A DNA stretch of 64,000 nucleotides from Candidatus Parcubacteria bacterium. GTDB taxonomy: Bacteria; Patescibacteriota; Minisyncoccia; Phycocordibacterales; Zambryskibacteraceae. Under the pieces are notes generated by a model that had not been told where the DNA came from, did no database searches, and worked only from the letters and a program-made list of their open reading frames with translations. The position numbers and the translations under genes are program-made. The DNA lies in NCBI GenBank assembly GCA_019661895.1, contig JAIFWO010000001.1, forward strand, positions 1,181 through 65,180, in the 5' to 3' direction. Below are positions 30,663-40,767 of the stretch, one piece after another; position 1 is the first letter of the stretch; the number at the start of each line of letters is the position of its first letter.

Positions 30663-31190
30663 CTATGAATTAAACTGGGTCATGGCCGTCTGGAGACCCT
30701 CGGCAGAGAGAGTCTCGACCGCTTCGACGACTCTCTTCAAAACCTTTTTAAATATGAGCGCCTCTTTGGGAGAAAACTTTCCTAAGATATGGCGCTCCAC
30801 ATTCTTCTCGCCCAAAGGCTTTTTAATTTTGCCGCTAGGCGTCACAGGCGAAATGCCGATGCGAACACGGATAAAAGCCTCTGTCTTAAGCGCTCTGATG
30901 ATAGATTCGATGCCTTTGTGCCCGCCTGAGCCGCGATTGTAAGAAATCTTCATGGTTCCAAGCGGCAAATCGAGATCATCATAGATAATCACGAGCTTCT
31001 CGGCAGCCTTTTTGCTCTTTATTACCTTAGCCACGCCGCTTCCGGATTTATTCATGAAGGTGTCGAGAGAGATGAGCTTGATACCGTCGATTTCCTTCTT
31101 CGACAAAGCCTCGAGAGCCATGCGGCCTGTGTTATGGCGAGTCTCGGCGTAGGCCTCACCGGGGTTCCCGAGCCCAACGATTGTGTACAT
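30663..31190 (-). CDS. pth: peptidyl-tRNA hydrolase
   Basis: The N-terminus reads MYTIVGLGNPGEAYAETRHNTG. Overall Pth fold. Confidence 0.85.
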   Translation of the reverse strand: MYTIVGLGNPGEAYAETRHNTGRMALEALSKKEIDGIKLISLDTFMNKSGSGVAKVIKSKKAAEKLVIIYDDLDLPLGTMKISYNRGSGGHKGIESIIRALKTEAFIRVRIGISPVTPSGKIKKPLGEKNVERHILGKFSPKEALIFKKVLKRVVEAVETLSAEGLQTAMTQFNS

Positions 31191-31220
31191 TCGATAAGTA
31201 TAATACAATCTAGCGAAATT

Positions 31221-31784
31221 ATGGATCCAATGGAAAATTCTTCGAAGACTTCGACCTCGTTTTGGAAAGAATTGCTAAAGCTCGTCGCCATCGCGGCCAT
31301 TGTGGTCATCCCCTTCCGTCTCTACATCGCTCAACCCTTCATCGTCGACGGCGCCTCCATGGACCCGACCTTCGAGACAGGCCAGTATCTCATTGTCGAC
31401 GAGGTTACCTACCGCTTCCACCCTCCAGTACGAGGCTCGGTCCTCATCTTCAAGTACCCCAAGGACCCTTCGAAGTATTTCATTAAGCGCCTGATCGGCT
31501 TACCAGGTGAGACTGTCACCATAGAGAACGGCGTCGTGACGATCGTCGAACCGAATAAAGAAACGCTCACCCTCGACGAGCCGTACGTGAAGCTGGCTAA
31601 GTCCGAGACCTCTACCTATCGCGAGCTTGGACCCGACGAATACTTCGTCATGGGAGACAACCGCGCGGGTAGCGCCGACAGCCGCTTCTGGGGACCGGTG
31701 CCAAAGAAAAATATTATCGGCCGACCGATCCTGCGCGTGTGGCCCTTCAGCCTATTGCCTGGCAACATCAATGAATCCCATTAG
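31221..31784 (+). CDS. lepB: signal peptidase I
   Basis: The catalytic Ser sits in VDGASMDPTF. Box motifs IKRLIGLPGETV and MGDNRAGSADSRFWG are present. Confidence 0.85.
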   Translation: MDPMENSSKTSTSFWKELLKLVAIAAIVVIPFRLYIAQPFIVDGASMDPTFETGQYLIVDEVTYRFHPPVRGSVLIFKYPKDPSKYFIKRLIGLPGETVTIENGVVTIVEPNKETLTLDEPYVKLAKSETSTYRELGPDEYFVMGDNRAGSADSRFWGPVPKKNIIGRPILRVWPFSLLPGNINESH

Positions 31785-31855: not shown

Positions 31856-33028
31856 ATGAATCCAACTAAATCTTCAACCGCCATAAAAGAGAGCGAGGCC
31901 TCGACCCGCGCATTTGTTATCGGCATGAAGAAAGTGGAGATAGACCGCGCCCTCTACATCGCGGCCCACTTCGGCTTCACCCCTATCGAGGCACCGAAGG
32001 TAACGGAGAGTGACGCCAAGATGGTGGAAGACTGCGCGGAAGTAATCGAGAGAGTGCCAGGCCGCTTCGTCTGCGACCCCACAGAGAAGGCCGCCTTCTT
32101 GCGCACGTATATAGAGAAGGGCTTGGTCTCGCACCCGCACCCTATGGCTCTCGCCTGGCACAAGGGACATAACTATTCTCTGGAGCTTATCGGCTTCCCC
32201 TTCGGCGTGGCCGAGGCCAAGCTCATCCGTACCGCGCTCTCGATCTTAAACGAGGAAGGCTTCAAGAATTTGGTGGTCGAGCTCAATACCATCGGTGACA
32301 AGGAGTCCATTACCGCTTACGAGCACGAGCTTCATAACTTCGTGCGTAAAGTTCATCACACCCTCTCAGCTGAGGCCAAGAAACTTGTTAAAGATAATAT
32401 CTTCTCAGTCGCGGCCATGCCCGAGGTCGACATCCCGCTCCCCTCCTCGATCTCCACTCTCAGCATTCAGAGCCGAGCGCAGTTCAAGGAGGTGCTCTCG
32501 TATTTGGACGCGCTTGGGGTCGACTTCCGCTTCGCGCCGGGACTTGTGGGCAACAAGCACTTCTGCTCTGAGACTTTGTTTACCATTAGAGACGCGGACA
32601 ACACGCTCCTGGCCGGAGGATATCGTTACTCGCGCCTCTCCAAACGCTTCGGATTCAAAAAGGAGTTACAACTCGTCGGAGCCACCGTCTATTGCGATCT
32701 TAAAAAGGATTCGGCCAAGAAGGTGTACAAGGATCTGCCCAGACCCAAGTTCTACTTAGTCCAACTCGGGCGCGAGGCCAAGATGAGAGCCTTGCCGCTG
32801 ATCGAGCTCCTTCGCACGCACCATATTCCTATCTACCACTTCTTAGGCAAGGACAAGATCACCGCTCAGATGCAGACCGCGGACAATCTCCGGGTGCCGT
32901 ATATCTTGATCATCGGACAAAAGGAGGCTCTGGAAAATACTGTCACCATCCGTAACACCTCCACCCGCGCCCAAGACACCATTCCTTTGAAAGACTTGCC
33001 CTTCTACCTCAAGAACCTGCCGTTTTAG
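31856..33028 (+). CDS. hisS: class II aaRS HisRS-like protein (divergent histidine--tRNA ligase or HisZ-like paralogue)
   Basis: The motif-3-like segment is LLAGGYRY. An ELNTIGD block and a C-terminal anticodon-binding-like domain (IIGQKEALENTVTIRN) are present. Motif 2 is atypical. Confidence 0.5.
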   Translation: MNPTKSSTAIKESEASTRAFVIGMKKVEIDRALYIAAHFGFTPIEAPKVTESDAKMVEDCAEVIERVPGRFVCDPTEKAAFLRTYIEKGLVSHPHPMALAWHKGHNYSLELIGFPFGVAEAKLIRTALSILNEEGFKNLVVELNTIGDKESITAYEHELHNFVRKVHHTLSAEAKKLVKDNIFSVAAMPEVDIPLPSSISTLSIQSRAQFKEVLSYLDALGVDFRFAPGLVGNKHFCSETLFTIRDADNTLLAGGYRYSRLSKRFGFKKELQLVGATVYCDLKKDSAKKVYKDLPRPKFYLVQLGREAKMRALPLIELLRTHHIPIYHFLGKDKITAQMQTADNLRVPYILIIGQKEALENTVTIRNTSTRAQDTIPLKDLPFYLKNLPF

Positions 33029-33392: not shown

Positions 33393-33408
33393 TACTTGAC
33401 CACCTATC

Positions 33409-33444
33409 AGCCGGATGAACGCATTGCGTTCATCCGGCTTTTCC
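33409..33444 (+). terminator. intrinsic terminator
   Basis: The hairpin agccggatgaacg-cattg-cgttcatccggct is followed by tttcc. Confidence 0.65.
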
Positions 33445-33488
33445 ATACTTGCCTCTACTGTATAGATGTGCTAAAGTACGCGGACCTC

Positions 33489-33740
33489 ATGATAAATATT
33501 GAAGTCGTAAAAGGTAATAACGAAAACAATCTAAGCGTCCTCAGGCGCTTCCAGAAGCGCGTCCAGGGAGCCGGCATTCTGACCAAAGTCCGCTCACGCC
33601 GCTACAGCGAGCGCATCAAAAGCGAGAATGTCAAACGCGCGAAGACCCTCTCCTACCTCAAGAAGAAGGAGAATATAAACGAGCTCTTGAAGCTCGGCAA
33701 AATGAATGAACTCCAGAAATTTGGCAAGAAAAGACGATAA
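33489..33740 (+). CDS. rpsU: 30S ribosomal protein S21
   Basis: The sequence reads MINIEVVKGNNENNLSVLRRFQKRVQGAGILTKVRSRRYSE... with a basic tail. Confidence 0.8.
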   Translation: MINIEVVKGNNENNLSVLRRFQKRVQGAGILTKVRSRRYSERIKSENVKRAKTLSYLKKKENINELLKLGKMNELQKFGKKRR

Positions 33741-34155
33741 GATCGAGGACTTCTCCATCCAAAACTTGACTAAAGCGAAAGGCACACCCGAAGGTGCGCC
33801 TTTCAAAGCTACTAAACGCAAAGTCTTAGGCGACTCTTACAGACTCTCATTAGTCCTCTGCGGTGACGCCCTCTCGCGCCGACTCAACCGCGCGTACCGC
33901 AAGAAAGATAAGCCGACCAATGTCCTCGCCTTCCCTCTCTCAAAAGATTCTGGAGAAATTTTCATAAATCTGAAGAAAGTTAAACCCTTTAGCGTCGAAT
34001 TCCTCTTTATCCACGGGCTCCTTCATTTGAAAGGAATGGAACACGGCGCTACAATGGAGAGAAGAGAACAAGAACTCTTGAAAAAATTTTATGGCCCGCC
34101 ACATCGCAGCCGGAATCGACATCGGAACGTACCAAGTAAAGGCGGTCATCGCTGA
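33706..34155 (+). CDS. ybeY: rRNA maturation endoribonuclease YbeY
   Basis: The motifs NVLAFPL...GEI and HGLLHLKGMEH (metal-binding H..H) are present. The 3' end overlaps ftsA by about 65 nt. Confidence 0.75.
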   Translation: MNSRNLARKDDKIEDFSIQNLTKAKGTPEGAPFKATKRKVLGDSYRLSLVLCGDALSRRLNRAYRKKDKPTNVLAFPLSKDSGEIFINLKKVKPFSVEFLFIHGLLHLKGMEHGATMERREQELLKKFYGPPHRSRNRHRNVPSKGGHR

Positions 34156-35296
34156 GGAACTTGTGCTTGAGAGCGGACGCGTCATGCCGAAGATCATTGG
34201 CACGGGCACGAGCGAGTCGAAGGGTCTCCACCAAGGCTACATTACGAACCAAAGCGAGGTGACCAGAAGCGTGCGCGCCGCGGTGGCCGCCGCCGAGAAG
34301 GCCGCCGGGGTCGAGGTCAAGCGCGCCTTCGTCTCGGTGGGAGGCATAGGGCTCTCGGGCGTGGCTACCACGGGCTCTACGGCTATCTCTCGAGCCGACC
34401 TTGAGATTACACCTCTCGATATCGAGAAGGCTTCCGAATCGGCCGAGGCGGCTATCCCCCACGCTCTCTCTTTGAACAGAAAGATCATCAACACCATTCC
34501 TCTGGAATGGAAGCTCGATGGCAAGACGGCCCTTGGTAGGATCGAGGGTTCGAGAGCCTCGAAGATCGAGGTCAAAACTCTTTTCATAACTTGTCTGGAA
34601 CATCACTTGGAAGACCTCATCGGTTCCGTCGAGGAAGCTGGCATCGAAGTGGTCGACGTGGTAGCCGCGCCTATTGCCGCCTCGTTCGTCACTCTCTCTA
34701 AAAAGCAGAAGAAGGCCGGCTGCGTATTGGCCAATATCGGCGCGGAGACGCTCTCGATCGTAGTCTTCGAGAATTCTAATCCCATTTCCTTAGAAGTCTT
34801 TGAGATCGGCTCGATGGACATAACCAACGACATCGCTCTTGGCTTGAAGATCCCTCTCGAGGAGGCCGAGTCGATCAAACTTGGGAGCGTGACCCGCACC
34901 ACCTACCCGAAGAAGAAGTACGAAGACATCGTGGCCGCCCGACTCTCTGACATGTTCGAACTGGTGGAAGGGCATTTGAAGAAGATCGGCCGCAACGCTC
35001 TCTTGCCGGCGGGCATCATCATTACCGGCGGCGGAGCGGGCATCATGGGAGTGAGAGACGCCGCCGAGACGGCCCTCAAACTTCCCTCGAAGATCGCTGA
35101 GATCCACTTCGGAGATGTGGAGAAGCATGGGAGCAAGGACTCCATCTGGTCGATAGCCTTCGGCCTAGCCATTGTCGGCTTCAATTCTGAGAACGAGCAA
35201 GGCTCGGTCGGCCTCAAACCCGTGGCCAAACTGGCCGCCTCCGGCAAGCGCGGCATGCGCACCCTCTCTGAGTGGTTCTCCAAATTCCTACCATAA
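34091..35296 (+). CDS. ftsA: cell division protein FtsA (actin-like ATPase)
   Basis: The phosphate-1 motif GIDIGTYQVKAVIAE and later actin-fold motifs are present. Confidence 0.85.
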   Translation: MARHIAAGIDIGTYQVKAVIAEELVLESGRVMPKIIGTGTSESKGLHQGYITNQSEVTRSVRAAVAAAEKAAGVEVKRAFVSVGGIGLSGVATTGSTAISRADLEITPLDIEKASESAEAAIPHALSLNRKIINTIPLEWKLDGKTALGRIEGSRASKIEVKTLFITCLEHHLEDLIGSVEEAGIEVVDVVAAPIAASFVTLSKKQKKAGCVLANIGAETLSIVVFENSNPISLEVFEIGSMDITNDIALGLKIPLEEAESIKLGSVTRTTYPKKKYEDIVAARLSDMFELVEGHLKKIGRNALLPAGIIITGGGAGIMGVRDAAETALKLPSKIAEIHFGDVEKHGSKDSIWSIAFGLAIVGFNSENEQGSVGLKPVAKLAASGKRGMRTLSEWFSKFLP

Positions 35297-35352
35297 TTTT
35301 CTATATCTGCTAGTATCTCTGAGGACACTTTGACCTTTCACAAGGAGATGCA

Positions 35353-36399
35353 ATGCTCTCAGAATGTATTCATGACGAGACAACCGCCGAAGCTAACCAA
35401 CACATCGGGTGCTTATCCCACCTCCGCACCGATAAGGGACGCAGGATCCGTGATCACAGTCCCGAAGAACCGATCCTCATTCCAAATGATTTTATTTCGG
35501 ACCGGTCAAGAATCACCTCGTCGAAAGCGTATAGACTGATGGCCCTCAAGACACAGGTGCTCACCGAGCCTGGTAACCCGTTCATTCGGACACGGCTCGC
35601 TCATGTGCTCGAAGTTGATGCGATCTCGAACATCTTGGCAAATGCGCTCGGGCTCAACGACCACTTGGTATCGGCTATTGCGCATGGTCACGATATTGGT
35701 CATGTACCGCTTGGCCACCCAGGAGAACACTTTCTCGCCAAACATATAGGGCGCAAGGAGTTCTGCCATGAGATACTTGGACCCCTGGTTGCTCAAAAGA
35801 TTGAGCGCAAGGGACAAGGTCTAAACCTCACCTGGGAGACACTCGACGGCATGATGCGTCATAGTGGCAATACCGCCCGTCCAGAGATGACGCAAGAGGC
35901 TTGGGTGGTACGCTATGGGGATAAGTTCGCATACATATTCGCAGATTACAGTGACTTGTCGAAGCGCATGAAATGCCCAATCCCAGCAGAGCTCACCGAA
36001 CTCATGAACAAGTTCGGAATCTCGCAGCGGAGTCGCACTAGCTTGGCCATGGCCGGGCTAATCGTGGAATCTGCTGAGATGAAACGTGTGAGTTTCGAAC
36101 ACTCGGAACTCGCCAAGAATTTCGCTCGGCTACGGGAGCTCATGATGGGCGTATATGTCCATGTCACGGAACAAAGCCTTGGCGGCATTATTGAGCCAGT
36201 GCTCAAATTTCTCGAAACCCTCAACCTCGGTGATCCATATCTGCTATTCGCCCTGATGACAGACAAAGACGTGATATATCTGGCGAATAAATCGAACAGA
36301 AACTTCACACATCTGCAGGATACAGCTCTCGCCGAACGGCTTCCCTATCTTGAATCAATAGGGAAACTCGATCTCTGTAATCCCTACCTCGATTGGTGA
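35353..36399 (+). CDS. HD-domain phosphohydrolase of the dGTP triphosphohydrolase (Dgt-like) family
   Basis: The N-terminal segment reads KAYRLMALKTQVL...RTRLAHVLEV, and the HD motif reads AHGHDIGHVPLGHPGE. Confidence 0.65.
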   Translation: MLSECIHDETTAEANQHIGCLSHLRTDKGRRIRDHSPEEPILIPNDFISDRSRITSSKAYRLMALKTQVLTEPGNPFIRTRLAHVLEVDAISNILANALGLNDHLVSAIAHGHDIGHVPLGHPGEHFLAKHIGRKEFCHEILGPLVAQKIERKGQGLNLTWETLDGMMRHSGNTARPEMTQEAWVVRYGDKFAYIFADYSDLSKRMKCPIPAELTELMNKFGISQRSRTSLAMAGLIVESAEMKRVSFEHSELAKNFARLRELMMGVYVHVTEQSLGGIIEPVLKFLETLNLGDPYLLFALMTDKDVIYLANKSNRNFTHLQDTALAERLPYLESIGKLDLCNPYLDW

Positions 36400-36402
36400 T
36401 TT

Positions 36403-36951
36403 ATGACTAATCAACTTATCGAGATCGAGCGCAAGTTCCGGCTGGATAATTTCCATCCGAGCATGATTCCGGCCGATGCAATCCTCACTGAATTGGTACA
36501 AGATTACCTGCTCAGTCCGCCTGGATCGGAGAGGCGTGTACGAGCGATCCAAAGTACCACTGGTATCTGGAAACACATCTACAATGAGAAGGGTCAGACC
36601 GGGGATGTTCGCATACGCACCGAACTGAAACGTGAGTTGAGCGAGGAGGAGTACCGCTCACTTCTAGAAGAAGTGGACCCGCAGCGAGCTACGATTCGTA
36701 AACTTCGGCACACCTTTCCTCACGCTGGTCAGACTCTCGAGCTCGACAAGTATCACGCTATACCAGCTCTTTACATCGTTGAGCACGAGATGGAGCATGT
36801 CGGCGTCGAAGTCGTCAAGCCAGATGGCTGGCAATGGACCGAGGTCACCAACGATCGCGATTATGGTAATTATGCTATTGCTCGGCTCCTCAAGATTGGT
36901 CAAGCGACGAGGCTCGTTAAGACTCCAGCACTTTCTTCCCCACAAGCCTAG
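36403..36951 (+). CDS. CYTH-domain protein (triphosphate tunnel metalloenzyme / class IV adenylate cyclase-like)
   Basis: The N-terminal EIERKF signature is present. The gene is 4 nt downstream of the HD gene. Confidence 0.6.
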   Translation: MTNQLIEIERKFRLDNFHPSMIPADAILTELVQDYLLSPPGSERRVRAIQSTTGIWKHIYNEKGQTGDVRIRTELKRELSEEEYRSLLEEVDPQRATIRKLRHTFPHAGQTLELDKYHAIPALYIVEHEMEHVGVEVVKPDGWQWTEVTNDRDYGNYAIARLLKIGQATRLVKTPALSSPQA

Positions 36952-36965
36952 CTTGTGGGGTTTTT
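36938..36965 (+). terminator. intrinsic terminator
   Basis: The hairpin ccccacaagc-ctag-cttgtgggg is followed by ttttt. Confidence 0.65.
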
Positions 36966-37066
36966 CTTAATTTCAGCTGTTTTTAAACGAAACAAATTGG
37001 CGTAATGTCAACTGTTTCCTTTTACCTCAAGTTTCTGTACTATATTGCCATCGTAACTATACAGAC

Positions 37067-38296
37067 ATGCCACAAGTCAAACCAGAAGTAGAAGCCTTTG
37101 CCCGCATCAAGGTCGTCGGCGTTGGCGGATCCGGGAAGAATGCGGTCAACCACATGATCAATTCGAAGGTCCGCGGCGTTGATTTCATCGCGGTCAATAC
37201 CGATGCGCAAGACCTTCATAACTCCATGGCCAAGAAGAAGGTCCATATCGGCAAGAACCTGACTCGCGGTCTCGGCGCAGGCATGAATCCCGAACTCGGC
37301 AAACGCGCGGTAGAAGAAACGAAGGAAGAGATCCAAGAAGCGATCAAGGGTGCGGACATGATCTTCATAGCGAGCGGCATGGGCGGCGGGACTGGCTCAG
37401 GCGCCGCGCCTATCATTGCTCGCACCGCTAAGGAAGCGGGAGTACTGACCGTAGCCGTCGTGACCAAGCCCTTCTTCTTCGAGGGCCAGCAACGCATGAG
37501 GATTGCCGAGAATGCCATAGAGGAATTGAAGCAGGCTGTTGACGCTATCATCGTCATCCCCAACGATCGCCTGCTCGCCACCATCGAGAAGGATACCAGC
37601 GCCAAGAACGCCTTCGCTATCTGTGACAATATTTTGAAGGAGGCGGTCGAGGGTATCTCGGACCTCATCACTATGCCAGGCATTATCAATATCGACTTCG
37701 CGGACATCCGCGCGGTCATGGAGAACGCCGGAGCAGCCCTGATGGGCATTGGCACTGGCAGCGGCGAGAAGCGCGCCGAGGATGCCGCCCGTGCCGCCAT
37801 CTCAAGTCCCCTTTTGGAAATTTCTATCAACGGCGCCAAGGGTGTGCTCTTCTCCATTGCTGGAGGCGACGACCTCACCATGTTTGAGATCCAGGATGCC
37901 GCCAAGGTCATCACCGAGAGCGTAGACCCGAACGCCAAGATCATCTTCGGTACTGTACGAGATGAGAAACTCAAAAAAGGCGAGGTCAAGATCACCGTGA
38001 TCGCCTCCTCCTTCCCAGAAAATCTCCAACGCCGCGCCACCTCGCTCTTCGGTGCTGGAGCACCGCCAAGCGCTCACAAGGAGCTCGCTGAGGAAGTCAA
38101 CCGCGGTAAGATCTTCAACACCTTCTCGCCCAAAAATGATAAGCAGAATGACAGACAGGAAGAGAAGCGCGACATACCTCCGCCTCAGAAGAAGCCGGAC
38201 ATCGTCCCTCCATCCCCCGCCACTCCTGTTATTGAAGACCCAGACGACGACTGGGGCGCCGTCCCAGCCTTCCTAAGGCGTTCGAAACTTAAATAA
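37067..38296 (+). CDS. ftsZ: cell division protein FtsZ
   Basis: The tubulin signature GGGTGSG is present, along with IKVVGVGGSGKNAVNHMI. Confidence 0.95.
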   Translation: MPQVKPEVEAFARIKVVGVGGSGKNAVNHMINSKVRGVDFIAVNTDAQDLHNSMAKKKVHIGKNLTRGLGAGMNPELGKRAVEETKEEIQEAIKGADMIFIASGMGGGTGSGAAPIIARTAKEAGVLTVAVVTKPFFFEGQQRMRIAENAIEELKQAVDAIIVIPNDRLLATIEKDTSAKNAFAICDNILKEAVEGISDLITMPGIINIDFADIRAVMENAGAALMGIGTGSGEKRAEDAARAAISSPLLEISINGAKGVLFSIAGGDDLTMFEIQDAAKVITESVDPNAKIIFGTVRDEKLKKGEVKITVIASSFPENLQRRATSLFGAGAPPSAHKELAEEVNRGKIFNTFSPKNDKQNDRQEEKRDIPPPQKKPDIVPPSPATPVIEDPDDDWGAVPAFLRRSKLK

Positions 38297-38301
38297 GAAA
38301 A

Positions 38302-38336
38302 ACCGCCCTTCGAGAATCTCGGGGCGGTTTTTGTAT
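38302..38336 (+). terminator. intrinsic terminator after ftsZ
   Basis: The hairpin accgccc-...-gggcggt is followed by ttttgt. Confidence 0.55.
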
Positions 38337-38390
38337 CGGTTTTTGTATCTTGGCACTTTTCTGATACTCTTATAGCACTAAGAAAAAATT

Positions 38391-39308
38391 ATGTACGACT
38401 TGATCATTATTGGTGGCGGACCGGCGGGGGTCAGTGCGGGCGTATACGCGGCGAGGAAGATGCTTAAGACCTTGCTTATCACGGAATCCTTCGGCGGACA
38501 GTCGACGGACTCGATGGGCATCCAAAACTGGATCGGCACCGTTGAGATCGCCGGACCAGACCTCGGCAAAAGCTTGGAGGCACATTTGCGCGCGTATGCG
38601 GATGGTGTTGTTGATATTAAGACCAATACCCGCGTGTCGAAAATTTCAAAGACTGACAGCAGCTTTGCCGTAGAAGCCGATGGGCAGTCTTATACTACAA
38701 AGACCGTGCTTATTGCGACAGGCTCCTCCCGCCGGAAGCTCGAGGTACCAGGGGCTAAAGAATATGAGAACAAGGGGGTGACGTACTGCGCCTCGTGCGA
38801 TGGTCCCCTCTTCTCTGGCCAAGACGTAGCGGTTGTGGGAGGCGGCAATGCCGGCTTCGAGAGCGCGGCCCAACTCCTGGCGTACTGTAAGTCGGTCACT
38901 CTCTTAAATAGAGGTGAGCACTTCAAGGCCGATGAGATGACGGTGGCCAAAGTCCTTGCCAATCCTAAGATGAAGGCTATCAAAAACGTGGTGCCCAAAG
39001 AGATCAAAGGCGAGAAGTTCGTCAAAGCCCTTGTCTACGAAGACGTCAATACGCATGAGGTCAGTGAGATCGCGGTAAATGGGATATTTGTCGAGATCGG
39101 GCTTATCCCTGCCACGGGCTTGGTGGAGGGTTTGGTACCGCTTAATGAGTACAAGCAAATTATCATTGATCACAAGACTCAACGCACGCAAGTGGAAGGC
39201 ATTTGGGCAGCTGGCGACTCGACCGATGCTCTCTATCATCAAAACAACATCGCCTCTGGCGATGCGGTCAAAGCTCTCGAAGATATCTATCTATATATCC
39301 ACGCATAA
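38391..39308 (+). CDS. trxB: thioredoxin-disulfide reductase
   Basis: The motifs are IIIGGGPAG, CASCDG (redox-active) and VVGGGNAG. Confidence 0.9.
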   Translation: MYDLIIIGGGPAGVSAGVYAARKMLKTLLITESFGGQSTDSMGIQNWIGTVEIAGPDLGKSLEAHLRAYADGVVDIKTNTRVSKISKTDSSFAVEADGQSYTTKTVLIATGSSRRKLEVPGAKEYENKGVTYCASCDGPLFSGQDVAVVGGGNAGFESAAQLLAYCKSVTLLNRGEHFKADEMTVAKVLANPKMKAIKNVVPKEIKGEKFVKALVYEDVNTHEVSEIAVNGIFVEIGLIPATGLVEGLVPLNEYKQIIIDHKTQRTQVEGIWAAGDSTDALYHQNNIASGDAVKALEDIYLYIHA

Positions 39309-39351: not shown

Positions 39352-40767
39352 CTACGGAATGGGTATTCTTGCTCCGAGGAATACCGCTGACTGCTTCGGC
39401 GGCGGGCATGCGTTGACCGCGCCGACACTCGAACATGCGTACGAACTCGACTTCGAGCCGCAATCTTTGCTGATGATGCAATACCCCGCAACAACCGCAC
39501 CGATCGCCCCACCTATCTTGATGGCCTTGCCCCATGGGAAGTTATCCTTCACATAGAGCGTATCGAAGTGCTGCCGCGTCTCGTAACGATCGTGGACCAC
39601 GACTGAATCACGCATTGTGACCGTGTCGTGGACAACCGTGGTGTCGTGCACAAGCACGGTATCCACTCGTCTGGTCGGTACGATCTTGGCAACCTGCCTT
39701 GAGGCAGTGTCCTTGGTTATTGGGATCCGTTGCTTAGAGGTTGGCCGCTTCTTGGTCGTATCCTGCTGGACCGACTGCTTGACGGCGTTGCCGACCTTCG
39801 CCACTTCGCCCGCGGCAGCAACTTCTGTCTTCGGCTTCGAAGACACGAGCTGTTGCAACTTCTTGACCGAGTCCCGCCACTTGGCATCACGCATACGTCC
39901 GAGGGAATCCTCATACCCAGACTGCGCAACAACAGCGGCTTTCTTGATCGAGTCGACATTCGCCGGCAGTCTCACCGTATCGACATTCGTGACTGTGTCA
40001 TGAATTTCGATAGGTTTAGACTTTACAGCAACGTATTGCGTGTCGACGCGCGCCGGCACTTTGCGTGCCTTAGCGAGTGAGTCAGCCCGAGCTGATGCTT
40101 TGCTTGCGACGAGTTGAACTGCATGCAAGCTTTCTTGCAACTTCTTCTGCGCTGCAGCAGCGTCTGCCAAGGCCTTTTTGAGCGGGCCTGAGTCAACAAC
40201 TGTAACGGTGAGCTGCGGAGTCGGCTTCGGTTCGAGTGCCTTACCAGGACTCATGCCCATGGTGATCAGCGCAGGAGTATCAACTAGCTTATGCTTCGCT
40301 GGATCGAAATCGCCTGCGAGATTCTTGAGCATCGGCTGGTTTGGTCGACTCGGTGTTGCGGATGCATTCGACTTCGGCTTCTCACTTGCACTTTTCGTAC
40401 TTGCGAGCGCCTTGGCCGGTGCCCTCTTCGGCGTATCGTGCATGAGTGAGAAGAGGCTGCACACCTTGCCTGTCTGGAAGAATACTCGAACAGTGTCCGG
40501 GCCGAGTTCGAAAGTAGTTCCGGATACCCAACCAGGCTTCACGTCTATTACATGTCTCAGATGACCGCGGGGGGGGAGCGGGTGAGGCTTGAGCGAGGCA
40601 TCCGGTGCGTCGTAAACGAGTACCGGATTGTTGCAAAGAGCCTTATCGGCCATGAGACTATCCAGCAGCTTCTGCCGGTCAGGTACCACCTTCTCTGGCG
40701 TCTTCACTTGAGCCCAAAGGCCCTGGAAGGCCGTAAAGAGGCCCAAAACTACCAACTTGAGTCGCAT
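39352..40767 (-). CDS. hypothetical secreted low-complexity protein with C-terminal hydrophobic/Cys-rich tail; contains a G8 tract
   Basis: A signal peptide MRLKLVVLGLFTAFQGLWAQV is present. Lys/Ala/Thr-rich repeats follow. Confidence 0.4.
   Translation of the reverse strand: MRLKLVVLGLFTAFQGLWAQVKTPEKVVPDRQKLLDSLMADKALCNNPVLVYDAPDASLKPHPLPPRGHLRHVIDVKPGWVSGTTFELGPDTVRVFFQTGKVCSLFSLMHDTPKRAPAKALASTKSASEKPKSNASATPSRPNQPMLKNLAGDFDPAKHKLVDTPALITMGMSPGKALEPKPTPQLTVTVVDSGPLKKALADAAAAQKKLQESLHAVQLVASKASARADSLAKARKVPARVDTQYVAVKSKPIEIHDTVTNVDTVRLPANVDSIKKAAVVAQSGYEDSLGRMRDAKWRDSVKKLQQLVSSKPKTEVAAAGEVAKVGNAVKQSVQQDTTKKRPTSKQRIPITKDTASRQVAKIVPTRRVDTVLVHDTTVVHDTVTMRDSVVVHDRYETRQHFDTLYVKDNFPWGKAIKIGGAIGAVVAGYCIISKDCGSKSSSYACSSVGAVNACPPPKQSAVFLGARIPIP
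40569..40576. repeat. G8/C8 homopolymer inside the 39352-40767 gene (codons HPLPPRG)
   Basis: Eight consecutive G on the plus strand. Confidence 0.8.

What the first reader, a model, noticed from the sequence alone, without database searches (positions are those of the whole stretch)
35353..36951. An HD-domain dGTPase-family hydrolase and a CYTH (triphosphate-tunnel) protein are inserted as a coupled pair between ftsA and ftsZ
ftsA and ftsZ are almost universally adjacent. Here they are separated by two genes only 4 nt apart: a Dgt-like HD phosphohydrolase (AHGHDIGHVPLGHPGE) and a CYTH protein with the EIERKF signature.

Dgt-family enzymes deplete dNTPs and are known anti-phage defence effectors. 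CYTH enzymes make or hydrolyse nucleotide triphosphate signals. A fixed HD+CYTH pair embedded in the division cluster could be a nucleotide-pool or signalling module coupled to cell division, or a defence island landed at a conserved locus.
Basis: partly seen in the sequence, partly recalled or inferred. Interest (0 to 1): 0.6.

Follow-up and report, generated by a model that had tools for sequence, protein, structure and literature searches.

The report
dNTPase plus triphosphatase operon between ftsA/ftsZ
Between the cell-division genes ftsA and ftsZ of a tiny Parcubacteria bacterium lies an optional two-gene operon: an enzyme predicted to split DNA building blocks into nucleoside plus triphosphate, and one predicted to destroy that triphosphate; it is not a defence island or part of the division machinery.

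Summary
In this Candidatus Parcubacteria contig, ftsA (34091-35296) and ftsZ (37067-38296) are separated by an HD-domain gene (35353-36399) and a 182-aa gene (36403-36951), 3 nt apart.

The HD protein is a short member of the dNTP triphosphohydrolase superfamily. Its best structural match is T. thermophilus TT1383, and its catalytic residues are intact. The second protein is a true CYTH/TTM enzyme, closest to the inorganic triphosphatase NeuTTM, although Pfam's CYTH model misses it.

- **Not a fixed pair.** Among 11 related genomes with the same backbone, the ftsA-ftsZ slot is empty in 5, and holds HD+CYTH in 2, HD alone in 1 and an AAA_28-CYTH fusion in 2.
- **Not foreign.** HD orthologues occur across Parcubacteria, usually elsewhere. 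This includes the sister genome, whose ftsA and ftsZ are contiguous. Composition is native.
- **No defence signature.**

HD and CYTH are nevertheless linked repeatedly: the same 3-nt-spaced operon occurs in a second genome, and an unrelated metagenome contig carries an HD-CYTH fusion.

Best reading (inferred): HD converts dNTP to deoxynucleoside plus PPPi, and CYTH converts PPPi to PPi plus Pi. I found no paper describing this coupling.

The parts
34091..35296 (+). ftsA, upstream boundary of the variable slot. Its last codons hold the weak -35-like hexamer CTACCA (35288-35293).
   Evidence: TIGR01174 204.8 bits, above the 175.85 cutoff; Pfam FtsA and SHS2_FTSA. 64-73% identical orthologues sit in the same backbone in 8 genomes.
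35297..35352 (+). Cassette leader: -10-like TAGTAT (35311-35316), a conserved block GGACAC..TTGACCTTTCACA, and the RBS AAGGAG (35342-35347) 5 nt before the ATG.
   Evidence: The leader is homologous in all five filled slots (window, L095, L012, L011, L096), whichever gene comes first. No consensus RNA structure was predicted. TTGACA-N16/17-TAGTAT/TAGACT motifs precede many HD orthologues elsewhere. Promoter function is inferred.
35353..36399 (+). HD-domain dNTP triphosphohydrolase-like gene (348 aa). The NCBI record starts it at M63 (286 aa), which is probably too short.
   Evidence: Pfam HD 31 bits, above the cutoff of 22. NF002327 169.9 bits and TIGR01353 97.6 bits are both below their cutoffs. 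PDB 2DQB, E 4.9e-25. AF2 pLDDT 93.7; Foldseek best match 2DQB, TM 0.63-0.67. H84, H113, D114, H117, H122, E125, H139, E140 and D190 are invariant in 42 orthologues.
36403..36951 (+). Stand-alone CYTH / triphosphate-tunnel metalloenzyme gene (182 aa), NeuTTM-like, with a C-terminal tail of about 20 aa ending in PQA.
   Evidence: Tunnel residues in the window protein: E7, E9, K11, R45, R47, K63, R72, E74, K100, R102, E113, D115, E127, E129. All 14 are invariant in the 22-sequence alignment; all except K11 and R72 remain invariant in the 37-sequence alignment. The NeuTTM catalytic dyad Y28/K52 corresponds to Y35/K63.
36938..36965 (+). Intrinsic terminator (10-bp stem with 7 GC pairs, 3-nt loop, T-run). 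The stem and loop overlap the last four codons and the TAG stop of the CYTH gene.
   Evidence: Terminator scan. RNA fold -18 kcal/mol, z = -4.4, with 0 of 200 shuffles folding as well. Equivalent hairpins lie at the end of the last cassette gene in L011, L012, L095 and L096.
37005..37043 (+). Conserved ftsZ-upstream element (ATGTCAAC ... TACTAT), downstream boundary of the slot.
   Evidence: It is present upstream of ftsZ in the aligned clade genomes, filled or empty, and in outgroup L014; a similar element is visible in L095. Its role as the ftsZ promoter or operator is inferred.
37067..38296 (+). ftsZ.
   Evidence: TIGR00065 399.7 bits, above the 295.2 cutoff; Pfam Tubulin and FtsZ_C.

Best explanation
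The two genes form a small, self-contained accessory operon: a promoter-like leader, an HD gene, a 3-nt gap, a CYTH gene, and a terminator overlapping the stop codon. The operon occupies a cargo-variable slot between ftsA and ftsZ in one clade of Parcubacteria.

The HD protein is a compact dNTP triphosphohydrolase of the TT1383/Dgt/SAMHD1 superfamily. Its family occurs across Parcubacteria at changing genomic positions. The CYTH protein is a NeuTTM-like triphosphate-tunnel enzyme, from a subfamily that is otherwise often fused to an AAA_28 P-loop domain.

Proposed mechanism: the HD enzyme cleaves dNTPs to deoxynucleoside plus inorganic triphosphate (PPPi). The CYTH enzyme hydrolyses that PPPi to PPi plus Pi. 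This would remove a strongly metal-chelating and possibly inhibitory product, and pull dNTP catabolism or pool balancing forward.

Shown here: the gene identities, intact catalytic residues, folds, operon anatomy, slot variability, and the recurrence of the HD-CYTH link.

Inferred: both enzyme activities, the PPPi hand-off, and promoter function.

The operon's position next to the division genes looks historical (a permissive slot between two conserved genes) rather than functional.
For: **Identity**
- HD: PDB 2DQB E 4.9e-25. Full-length fold match to 2DQB, followed by CloA and the E. coli, L. blandensis and Shewanella dGTPases.
- The H..HD..D metal ligands and the H139/E140 'HE' dyad are invariant in 42 orthologues. 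The HD motif and HE dyad are the features the Clover paper names as required for dNTP hydrolysis (PMC12265719).
- CYTH: profile to NeuTTM (2FBL/3TYP) E 2.5e-22. AF2 pLDDT 95, best Foldseek matches 2FBL, then AtTTM3 and SaTTM bound to triphosphate.
- The charged tunnel residues are invariant or nearly so across the family.
- NeuTTM's catalytic dyad Tyr-28/Lys-52 (Kohn et al. 2012, PMC3440374) aligns with Y35/K63.

**Chemistry**
- Dgt-type enzymes produce tripolyphosphate (Kornberg 1958, as cited in PMC3440374 and PMC13519002).

**Linkage**
- L095 has leader, HD (57.5% identical), 3 nt, CYTH (41%), terminator, then ftsZ.
- L054 encodes a single 521-aa HD-CYTH fusion. It is joined exactly where the window has 'LDW-stop / ...EIERKF'.
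- The L054 CYTH falls elsewhere in the CYTH tree, so the fusion looks independent (weak support).
- My rough estimate: if CYTH were placed at random in a genome of about 700 genes, at most 0.03 such adjacencies would be expected among the 36 HD loci.

**Operon anatomy**.

**Accessory and native status**
- Slot census.
- The sister genome carries its HD on another contig.
- Codon use is within the window's norm.
Against: - No enzyme activity was measured for any member of either family.
- HD scores below every curated dGTPase cutoff. It could have a different substrate.
- Most HD orthologues (34 of 36 loci) have no CYTH partner. CYTH occurs without HD in L011 and L096. The partnership is therefore dispensable.
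- Within the 11 clade genomes, HD and CYTH presence are not statistically associated.
- The window and L095 probably share one ancestral event. There are therefore only about two independent HD-CYTH joinings, and one of them rests on a 2.3-kb metagenome contig.
- The commonest partner of this CYTH subfamily is an AAA_28 P-loop domain. This hints at a role not specific to dNTPases.
- In E. coli, bulk PPPase activity comes from inorganic pyrophosphatase (PMC3440374). A dedicated PPPase is therefore not obviously needed.
Confidence: 0.5

Rival explanations
1. There is no functional coupling. HD and CYTH are two independent accessory genes that sit side by side only because the ftsA-ftsZ gap tolerates cargo. 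HD trims dNTP pools on its own. CYTH, normally the partner of an AAA_28 P-loop domain, acts on some other triphosphate such as an NTP, short polyphosphate or thiamine triphosphate.
For: - The slot holds HD alone (L012), AAA_28-CYTH alone (L011, L096), an unrelated 166-aa ORF (L096), or nothing.
- The neighbouring FtsZ-TrxR gap also varies, from 95 nt to 1.6 kb.
- 62 of the 149 best CYTH relatives carry an N-terminal extension of at least 150 aa, and 45 of those have a Walker A motif.
- 34 of 36 HD loci lack CYTH.
Against: - The L054 HD-CYTH fusion lies outside this slot.
- The 3-nt spacing is conserved between the window and L095 despite 41-57% protein identity.
- One leader and one terminator bracket both genes.
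Confidence: 0.22
2. It is a regulated nucleotide-depletion system for anti-phage defence or stress, analogous to Clover (CloA dNTPase plus CloB). HD would be the effector. CYTH would make or destroy a nucleotide or phosphate signal, for example by class IV adenylyl cyclase-like chemistry, that switches HD on or off.
For: - dGTPase-family enzymes are known defence effectors, and PADLOC's dGTPase model hits HD at E 7e-30.
- CloA is among the structural matches.
- Clover shows that a dNTPase can be paired with a small-molecule-making partner (PMC12265719).
- The slot contents turn over between genomes that are 93% identical in backbone proteins (L011 versus L012). This is a pattern common at defence hotspots.
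- Cargo genes diverge faster than backbone genes (41-62% against about 75%).
Against: - HD is a lineage-wide orthologue family, mostly without a partner.
- The anti-phage dGTPase NCBIfam model scores 68.5 against a cutoff of 400, and the PADLOC hit covers only about a third of the model.
- CYTH has no PADLOC hit.
- CYTH is closest to a PPPase rather than to CyaB or YpAC-IV. The cyclases appear only at E of about 5e-4 and TM 0.47.
- There are no defence genes nearby, composition is native, and no mobility signatures were found.
Confidence: 0.1
3. It is a division-coupled module. Co-transcription with ftsA ties dNTP/GTP-pool or triphosphate control to the cell cycle, for example by lowering dNTPs after replication or by modulating the guanine nucleotides available to FtsZ.
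For: - No terminator was found between ftsA and HD, so read-through from ftsA is possible.
- HD lies next to ftsA or ftsZ in four independent genomes, counting the near-duplicate loci L047 and L057 as one. In L047/L057 it occupies a different slot on the opposite strand.
Against: - 5 of 11 clade genomes and both outgroups have ftsA and ftsZ contiguous.
- The sister genome keeps HD between a PfkB kinase gene and a fructose-bisphosphate aldolase gene.
- About 30 other HD loci have no division gene nearby.
- The cassette has its own leader and terminator.
Confidence: 0.06

Closest known systems
TT1383, dNTP triphosphohydrolase of Thermus thermophilus HB8 (PDB 2DQB)
   Same: Best sequence match (E 4.9e-25) and best structural match (TM 0.63-0.67). 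Similar compact size, 348 against 376 aa. The H..HD..D metal site and the conserved His after it are shared.
   Different: Only about 25% identical. The window protein scores below all curated dGTPase family cutoffs. It belongs to a Parcubacteria-wide clade with its own invariant features: C20, C138, C342 and a C-terminal LDW. Its activity and oligomeric state are untested. TT1383 is not known to me to have a CYTH partner (from memory).
NeuTTM (NE1496), specific inorganic triphosphatase of Nitrosomonas europaea (PDB 2FBL, 3TYP)
   Same: Closest solved relative by sequence profile (E 2.5e-22) and by fold. It is a stand-alone single domain of about 150-180 aa. It shares the ExExK motif, the basic and acidic tunnel residues, and the Tyr/Lys catalytic dyad.
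   Different: 27% identical. The window protein has an extra conserved C-terminal tail of about 20 aa. Its subfamily is often fused to AAA_28. It sits directly after, or is fused to, a dNTPase-like gene, which offers a candidate source of PPPi that the NeuTTM literature lacks.
Clover anti-phage system (CloA dNTPase plus CloB nucleotidyltransferase; PDB 9P8S-9P8V)
   Same: A two-gene unit in which a Dgt-family dNTPase is paired with a second enzyme acting on nucleotide or phosphate compounds. CloA is a structural match to the HD protein.
   Different: The Clover partner is a Pol-beta NTase that makes p3diT, and the system lies in defence islands. Here the partner is a CYTH hydrolase-type enzyme, the HD is lineage-wide, and no defence context exists.
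P-loop kinase-TTM proteins such as Arabidopsis TTM1/TTM2 (PDB 7Z67)
   Same: They have the same domain order as the AAA_28-CYTH fusions that occupy this slot in L011 and L096, and that make up about 40% of the window protein's closest relatives.
   Different: The window protein has no P-loop domain. The plant proteins carry a uridine-kinase-like domain plus a coiled coil and a membrane anchor. Homology between the two P-loop domains was not tested.
Stand-alone anti-phage dGTPases (Tal et al. 2022 type; NCBIfam NF041026; Shewanella dGTPase, PDB 9P8W)
   Same: HD-domain dGTPase superfamily. There are partial HMM hits.
   Different: The score is 68.5 bits against a cutoff of 400. The window protein is about 100 aa shorter. 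It is conserved as an orthologue across a phylum-level lineage rather than scattered sporadically.

Membership tests
dNTP triphosphohydrolase superfamily (Dgt / TT1383 / SAMHD1) | HD-domain metal site H...HD...D | tested here: met
   H84, H113-D114 and D190 align to the TT1383 ligands. They are invariant in 42 orthologues.
dNTP triphosphohydrolase superfamily (Dgt / TT1383 / SAMHD1) | Catalytic His/Glu 'HE' dyad and the GHxPxGH histidines downstream of the HD motif | tested here: met
   H117, H122, E125, H139 and E140 are invariant. The HD motif and HE dyad are the requirement stated in PMC12265719.
dNTP triphosphohydrolase superfamily (Dgt / TT1383 / SAMHD1) | Score above a curated family threshold (TIGR01353 or the NF0023xx equivalogs) | tested here: not met
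   TIGR01353 scores 97.6 against 152.35. NF002327 scores 169.9 against 393. All 11 models fall below their cutoffs, and most hits cover only the N-terminal half. Membership therefore holds at superfamily level only.
dNTP triphosphohydrolase superfamily (Dgt / TT1383 / SAMHD1) | Whole-chain all-helical dNTPase fold | tested here: met
   AF2 pLDDT 93.7, pTM 0.93. The top 50 Foldseek PDB matches are all dNTPases or dGTPases, with the best being 2DQB at E 3e-12.
dNTP triphosphohydrolase superfamily (Dgt / TT1383 / SAMHD1) | Hydrolysis of dNTP to deoxynucleoside plus PPPi | not testable with these tools
   Needs an enzyme assay.
Anti-phage dGTPase (defence effector) | Match to the curated anti-phage dGTPase models | tested here: not met
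   NF041026 scores 68.5 against a cutoff of 400, and NF003701 scores 58.5 against 383. The PADLOC dGTPase hit has E 7e-30 but covers model positions 37-175 of 395 only.
Anti-phage dGTPase (defence effector) | Defence-island context, patchy distribution, or signs of horizontal transfer | tested here: not met
   Neighbours are housekeeping genes. The orthologue family is lineage-wide. GC3 z = -0.5 and codon-use z = -0.54. No flanking repeats. Only distant phage hits.
CYTH / triphosphate tunnel metalloenzyme superfamily (Pfam PF01928) | N-terminal ExExK motif and the paired basic and acidic tunnel residues | tested here: met
   Motifs: E7-x-E9-x-K11, R45-x-R47, K63, R72-x-E74, K100-x-R102, E113-x-D115, E127-x-E129. 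All are invariant in the 22-sequence alignment; all but K11 and R72 remain invariant in the 37-sequence alignment.
CYTH / triphosphate tunnel metalloenzyme superfamily (Pfam PF01928) | Pfam PF01928 gathering threshold | tested here: inconclusive
   The window sequence itself gives no hit, even at E<=10. However, 11 of 22 close family members hit PF01928. The L011 homologue, 41% identical, scores 30.9 against 23.2.
CYTH / triphosphate tunnel metalloenzyme superfamily (Pfam PF01928) | Eight-stranded beta-barrel or tunnel fold | tested here: met
   AF2 pLDDT 95.1 with nine beta-strands. Foldseek matches at E<=0.001 are CYTH/TTM enzymes (2FBL, AtTTM3, SaTTM, Pfu and PH1012 proteins, class IV cyclases) plus the structurally related Mediator Med18/Med20 subunits.
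NeuTTM-type specific inorganic triphosphatase | Tyr-28/Lys-52 catalytic dyad (Kohn et al. 2012, PMC3440374) | tested here: met
   Y35 and K63 align to the NeuTTM residues and are invariant in the family.
NeuTTM-type specific inorganic triphosphatase | Specific PPPi hydrolysis; no adenylyl cyclase activity | not testable with these tools
   Needs an enzyme assay.
Class IV (CyaB-type) adenylyl cyclase | Closest similarity to CyaB or YpAC-IV rather than to phosphatase-type TTMs | tested here: not met
   YpAC-IV (2FJT, 3N0Z) appears only at E 5e-4 to 2e-3 and TM of about 0.47, well behind NeuTTM, AtTTM3 and SaTTM. No cyclase appears in the PDB sequence searches.
Clover (CloA-CloB) dNTPase-regulator system | Partner gene is a Pol-beta-superfamily nucleotidyltransferase | tested here: not met
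   The partner is a CYTH-fold protein. The Clover definition is taken from PMC12265719.
Conserved core gene order of the lineage | ftsA-HD-CYTH-ftsZ order conserved across related genomes | tested here: not met
   Census of 11 clade genomes: empty in 5, HD+CYTH in 2, HD alone in 1, AAA_28-CYTH in 2.

The most novel reading that the evidence does not exclude
The ftsA-ftsZ slot carries a swappable, fast-evolving nucleotide-control cassette: HD dNTPase, with or without AAA_28, with or without CYTH, all behind one conserved leader. It would act as a regulated dNTP-depletion system for anti-phage defence or cell-cycle control. CYTH would not merely clear a by-product. It would make or remove a phosphate or nucleotide signal that gates the dNTPase. 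This would be a CPR counterpart of Clover-type systems, built from a different partner enzyme and parked between the two main division genes.
Probability: 0.1. Interest if true: 0.75.

Novelty: new variant of a known kind. Interest (0 to 1): 0.42.

Why it matters
Specific inorganic triphosphatases of the CYTH family, such as NeuTTM, have had no known physiological source of substrate. Kohn et al. 2012 question whether PPPi even exists in cells. The classic reaction that produces PPPi is the Dgt-type dNTP triphosphohydrolase reaction.

An operon seen in two genomes, plus one gene fusion joining these two enzyme types, gives a directly testable hypothesis: CYTH clears the PPPi made by dNTPases. 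It also supplies small proteins suitable for expression to test it.

The locus further shows that the very conserved ftsA-ftsZ junction can serve as a cargo slot in streamlined CPR genomes, with turnover between genomes that are 93% identical in backbone proteins.

If the coupling proves false, the finding reduces to two ordinary accessory enzymes in an unusual place.

Tried and rejected
**Led nowhere**
- A word-index homologue search with CYTH alone found only the protein itself.
- The exact-sequence contig look-up of that protein was not on record.
- Direct Pfam, NCBIfam and PADLOC scans of CYTH gave nothing.
- The HD neighbour-joining tree is star-like, with bootstraps below 40% for the window's position. 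It cannot tell vertical descent from cassette exchange.
- The search for flanking direct or inverted repeats found only short matches that look like chance.
- No consensus RNA structure was found in the conserved leader, and there are no Rfam hits other than tRNAs.
- The AAA_28 domain of L011 has no informative PDB or NCBIfam relative.
- The afdb50 fold library was unavailable.
- Iyer & Aravind 2002 and Delvaux 2011 are not held.
- Four literature searches found no paper linking CYTH enzymes to dNTP triphosphohydrolases.

**Considered and rejected**
- Recent horizontal insertion or a defence island. Composition is native, the HD family is lineage-wide, there is no defence context, and the arrangement is shared with a diverged relative.
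- A fixed HD+CYTH pair, rejected by the slot census and by the 34 of 36 HD loci that lack CYTH.
- An integral part of the division cluster. The cassette is absent from 5 of 11 clade genomes and has its own leader and terminator.
- L095 as an especially close relative. Its 89% FtsZ identity looked striking, but over the same 313 residues every clade member scores 87-90%.
- HD fragments in the L096 slot. The 166-aa ORF there has no HD similarity.
Full report
**1. What is there**

The window is a contig of a Candidatus Parcubacteria bacterium. The 182-aa ORF is identical to NCBI 'hypothetical protein KW785_00270'.

The local gene order is as follows:

| Gene | Coordinates |
|---|---|
| signal peptidase I | 31134-31784 |
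| HisS-like protein | 31856-33028 |
| small S21-like ORF | 33396-33740 |
| ybeY | 33706-34155 |
| ftsA | 34091-35296 |
| HD-domain gene | 35353-36399 |
| 182-aa gene | 36403-36951 |
| ftsZ | 37067-38296 |
| thioredoxin reductase-like gene | 38391-39308 |

- ftsA and ftsZ both pass their NCBIfam equivalog cutoffs.
- The two inserted genes are separated by 3 nt, TGA-ttt-ATG.

**2. The HD protein**

- Pfam HD passes its threshold. Eleven dGTPase NCBIfam models hit, the best being NF002327 at E 7e-50. All fall far below their curated cutoffs, and most cover only the N-terminal half.
- PADLOC's dGTPase model hits at E 7e-30 over a third of its length.
- The best solved relative is the T. thermophilus dNTP triphosphohydrolase TT1383 (2DQB, E 4.9e-25).
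- An AlphaFold model built on 42 orthologues has pLDDT 93.7. It matches 2DQB over the whole chain (TM 0.63-0.67). The next matches are CloA and the L. blandensis, E. coli and Shewanella dGTPases.
- The metal ligands H84, H113-D114 and D190, and the downstream H117, H122, E125 and H139-E140, are invariant.
- More than 300 homologues were found. The top 120 are 51-65% identical, mostly about 343 aa, and are named from Parcubacteria, Paceibacterota, Azambacteria and Minisyncoccia.
- The NCBI model of 286 aa starts at M63. That start removes conserved residues. The 348-aa start is supported by homologue lengths and by an AAGGAG box 5 nt upstream.

**3. The CYTH protein**

No Pfam, NCBIfam or PADLOC model detects the sequence. 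It is still a CYTH/TTM enzyme:
- phmmer finds NeuTTM (2FBL/3TYP) at E 4.5e-4.
- An exhaustive HMMER search finds 1026 relatives.
- A profile of 22 relatives hits NeuTTM at E 2.5e-22, and 11 of the 22 hit PF01928.
- The AF2 model has pLDDT 95. Its best PDB matches are 2FBL, AtTTM3 and the S. acidocaldarius TTM bound to triphosphate. Class IV adenylyl cyclases score much weaker.
- The ExExK motif and the paired Arg/Lys and Glu/Asp tunnel residues are conserved across the family.
- The NeuTTM catalytic dyad Tyr-28/Lys-52 (PMC3440374) corresponds to invariant Y35/K63.
- Of the 149 best relatives, 73 are stand-alone. Another 62 carry an N-terminal extension of at least 150 aa, and 45 of those have a Walker A motif. 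In L011 this extension is a Pfam AAA_28 domain.

**4. Is the arrangement fixed, recent or foreign?**

A genome scan with FtsA recovered eight related MAGs that share the backbone S26, HisS-like, YbeY, FtsA, [slot], FtsZ, [slot], TrxR. Two more such genomes came from CYTH relatives.

| ftsA-ftsZ slot content | Loci |
|---|---|
| Empty (92-131 nt) | L007, L008, L009, L010, L013, and outgroup L014 (174 nt) |
| HD only | L012 (same locus as L001) |
| AAA_28-CYTH fusion only | L011, and L096, which also has an unrelated 166-aa ORF |
| HD + 3 nt + stand-alone CYTH | window and L095 |

- In L096 the AAA_28-CYTH gene has an internal stop codon.
- A concatenated backbone tree places the window with L007, which is empty, at 97.5% bootstrap.
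- L011 pairs with L012 at 100% bootstrap and 93% amino-acid identity, although their cargo differs.
- The L007 genome carries its HD orthologue (P0011, 60% identical) on another contig, between a PfkB kinase gene and a fructose-bisphosphate aldolase gene.
- About 50 metagenomic HD loci show unrelated contexts. The exception is L047/L057, where HD lies on the opposite strand between ftsZ and the TrxR gene.
- GC3 and synonymous codon use of both genes are within the window's norm, with z between -0.8 and +0.1.
- No flanking repeats were found, and there are no close phage homologues.

The pair is therefore neither a fixed lineage feature nor a recently landed foreign island. It is native but dispensable cargo in a permissive slot.

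**5. Anatomy of the cassette**

- All five filled slots begin with a homologous leader: TA[GC]TATC, about 6 nt, GGACAC, TGACCYTT, ACA, GGAG, about 6 nt, then the start codon. This holds whether HD or AAA_28-CYTH comes first.
- TAGTAT/TAGACT hexamers preceded by TTGACA at 16-17 nt are common upstream of HD orthologues elsewhere. The leader therefore probably contains the promoter's -10 element (inference).
- The leader has no predicted consensus RNA structure.
- The cassette ends in a strong intrinsic terminator at 36938-36965 (-18 kcal/mol, z = -4.4). Its stem overlaps the last four codons and the stop codon of CYTH. Equivalent hairpins close the cassette in L011, L012, L095 and L096.
- Downstream, a conserved ATGTCAAC...TA[CG]TAT element precedes ftsZ in filled and empty genomes alike. 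ftsZ therefore probably keeps its own control region.

**6. Are HD and CYTH functionally linked?**

Evidence for a link:
- The window and L095 share the identical HD-3 nt-CYTH layout although the proteins are only 57.5% and 41% identical.
- A profile search of six-frame ORFs of all fetched loci found a 521-aa single ORF in L054, which has an unrelated context. In it an HD domain (47% identical) runs straight into a CYTH domain (30% identical; profile E 2.8e-37). The junction is '...DLEW|FKPYEIERKF', exactly where the window has 'LDW-stop' followed by '...LIEIERKF'.
- The L054 CYTH branches away from the window/L095 pair in the CYTH tree (weak support). This suggests an independent joining.

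Evidence against a link:
- 34 of 36 HD loci lack CYTH.
- CYTH occurs without HD in L011 and L096.

**7. Mechanism**

Dgt-type enzymes cleave dNTP to deoxynucleoside plus tripolyphosphate (Kornberg 1958, as cited). [quoted passage not shown]

The simplest model is a two-step pathway:
1. HD converts dNTP to deoxynucleoside plus PPPi.
2. CYTH converts PPPi to PPi plus Pi.

The second step would remove a chelating and possibly inhibitory product. Both activities and the hand-off are inferred. I put the hand-off model at about 0.5.

The AAA_28-CYTH variant could, speculatively, add a nucleoside-kinase-like step. No data support this.

**8. Comparison and novelty**

- Each protein is a new, divergent member of a known superfamily.
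- The dNTPase-CYTH operon or fusion was not found in four literature searches. It is also absent from a 2026 survey of dGTPase domain architectures, which lists SAM, NLR, TIR, CARD, death-domain and SIR2 fusions (PMC13519002).
- The library searched is limited, and Iyer & Aravind 2002 could not be read.
- Clover (CloA dNTPase plus CloB NTase, PMC12265719) is the nearest two-gene analogue. It differs in partner chemistry and in context.

I rate the finding a new variant of a known kind. Interest is moderate at 0.42. It offers a neat, testable link for an old question about PPPi, plus an unusual use of the ftsA-ftsZ junction. It is not a new kind of system.

Noticed in passing
window 35353-35538: The public annotation (P0002, 286 aa) starts the HD gene at M63. 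Homologues of about 343 aa, invariant N-terminal residues (C20, D50, R61) and an AAGGAG box 5 nt before the ATG at 35353 indicate that the true product is 348 aa.
   Followed up: partly
window 36880-36965; L011 9380-9450; L095 1640-1700; L096 6860-6910: The terminator stem is built from the last codons of the CYTH gene. The C-terminal tail, ending in P-[QHS]-A, is conserved across relatives. The 3' end of the coding sequence may therefore be constrained as RNA as well as protein.
   Followed up: partly
window 37005-37043 and the equivalent ftsZ upstream regions of L007-L014: A conserved element, (A/T)TGTCAAC followed by TA[GC]TAT, lies upstream of ftsZ. The spacing is too long for a standard -35/-10 pair. 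It may be an operator or an unusual promoter. A TTGAC-like block also occurs in the cassette leader.
   Followed up: no
L011 8216-9580 versus L012 8216-9446: Two genomes 93% identical in backbone proteins carry different cargo (AAA_28-CYTH against HD). The cargo sits between near-identical leader and post-terminator sequences, so the replacement is precise to the ORF. Whether this arose by differential deletion or by recombinational exchange is unresolved.
   Followed up: partly
L096 5135-6891: The slot holds an unknown 166-aa ORF with its own terminator. It also holds an AAA_28-CYTH gene interrupted by an in-frame TAG, which splits it into 61-aa and 296-aa ORFs. This could be a pseudogene, a sequencing error or recoding.
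   Followed up: partly
window 38297-38390 and the FtsZ-TrxR gaps of L007-L012, L047, L057: The next intergenic gap, between ftsZ and the TrxR gene, is also variable. It is 95 nt in the window, up to 1.6 kb in L010, and holds an opposite-strand HD gene in L047/L057.
   Followed up: no
window 33706-34155 / 34091: The ybeY ORF overlaps the ftsA start by about 65 nt. ybeY, not ftsQ, lies directly upstream of ftsA in all clade genomes.
   Followed up: no
window 31856-33028: The 390-aa HisS-like protein scores 99.7 bits against the hisS cutoff of 286.75, and only its anticodon-binding domain is seen by Pfam. It may be a divergent or truncated HisRS, or a HisZ-like paralogue. It is conserved in the whole clade.
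   Followed up: no
window 35353-36399 (protein positions 20, 138, 342, 348): Three cysteines and the C-terminal tryptophan are invariant across 42 HD orthologues. They could form a metal or redox site, or an oligomer contact, specific to this Parcubacteria clade.
   Followed up: no
window 39352-40767 (-): A 471-aa ORF with normal codon use has no Pfam or NCBIfam hit.
   Followed up: no
window 14640-15262: A cluster of five tRNA genes: Cys, Leu, Gly, Lys, Leu. Thirteen tRNAs lie in the window overall, and there are no other Rfam hits.
   Followed up: no
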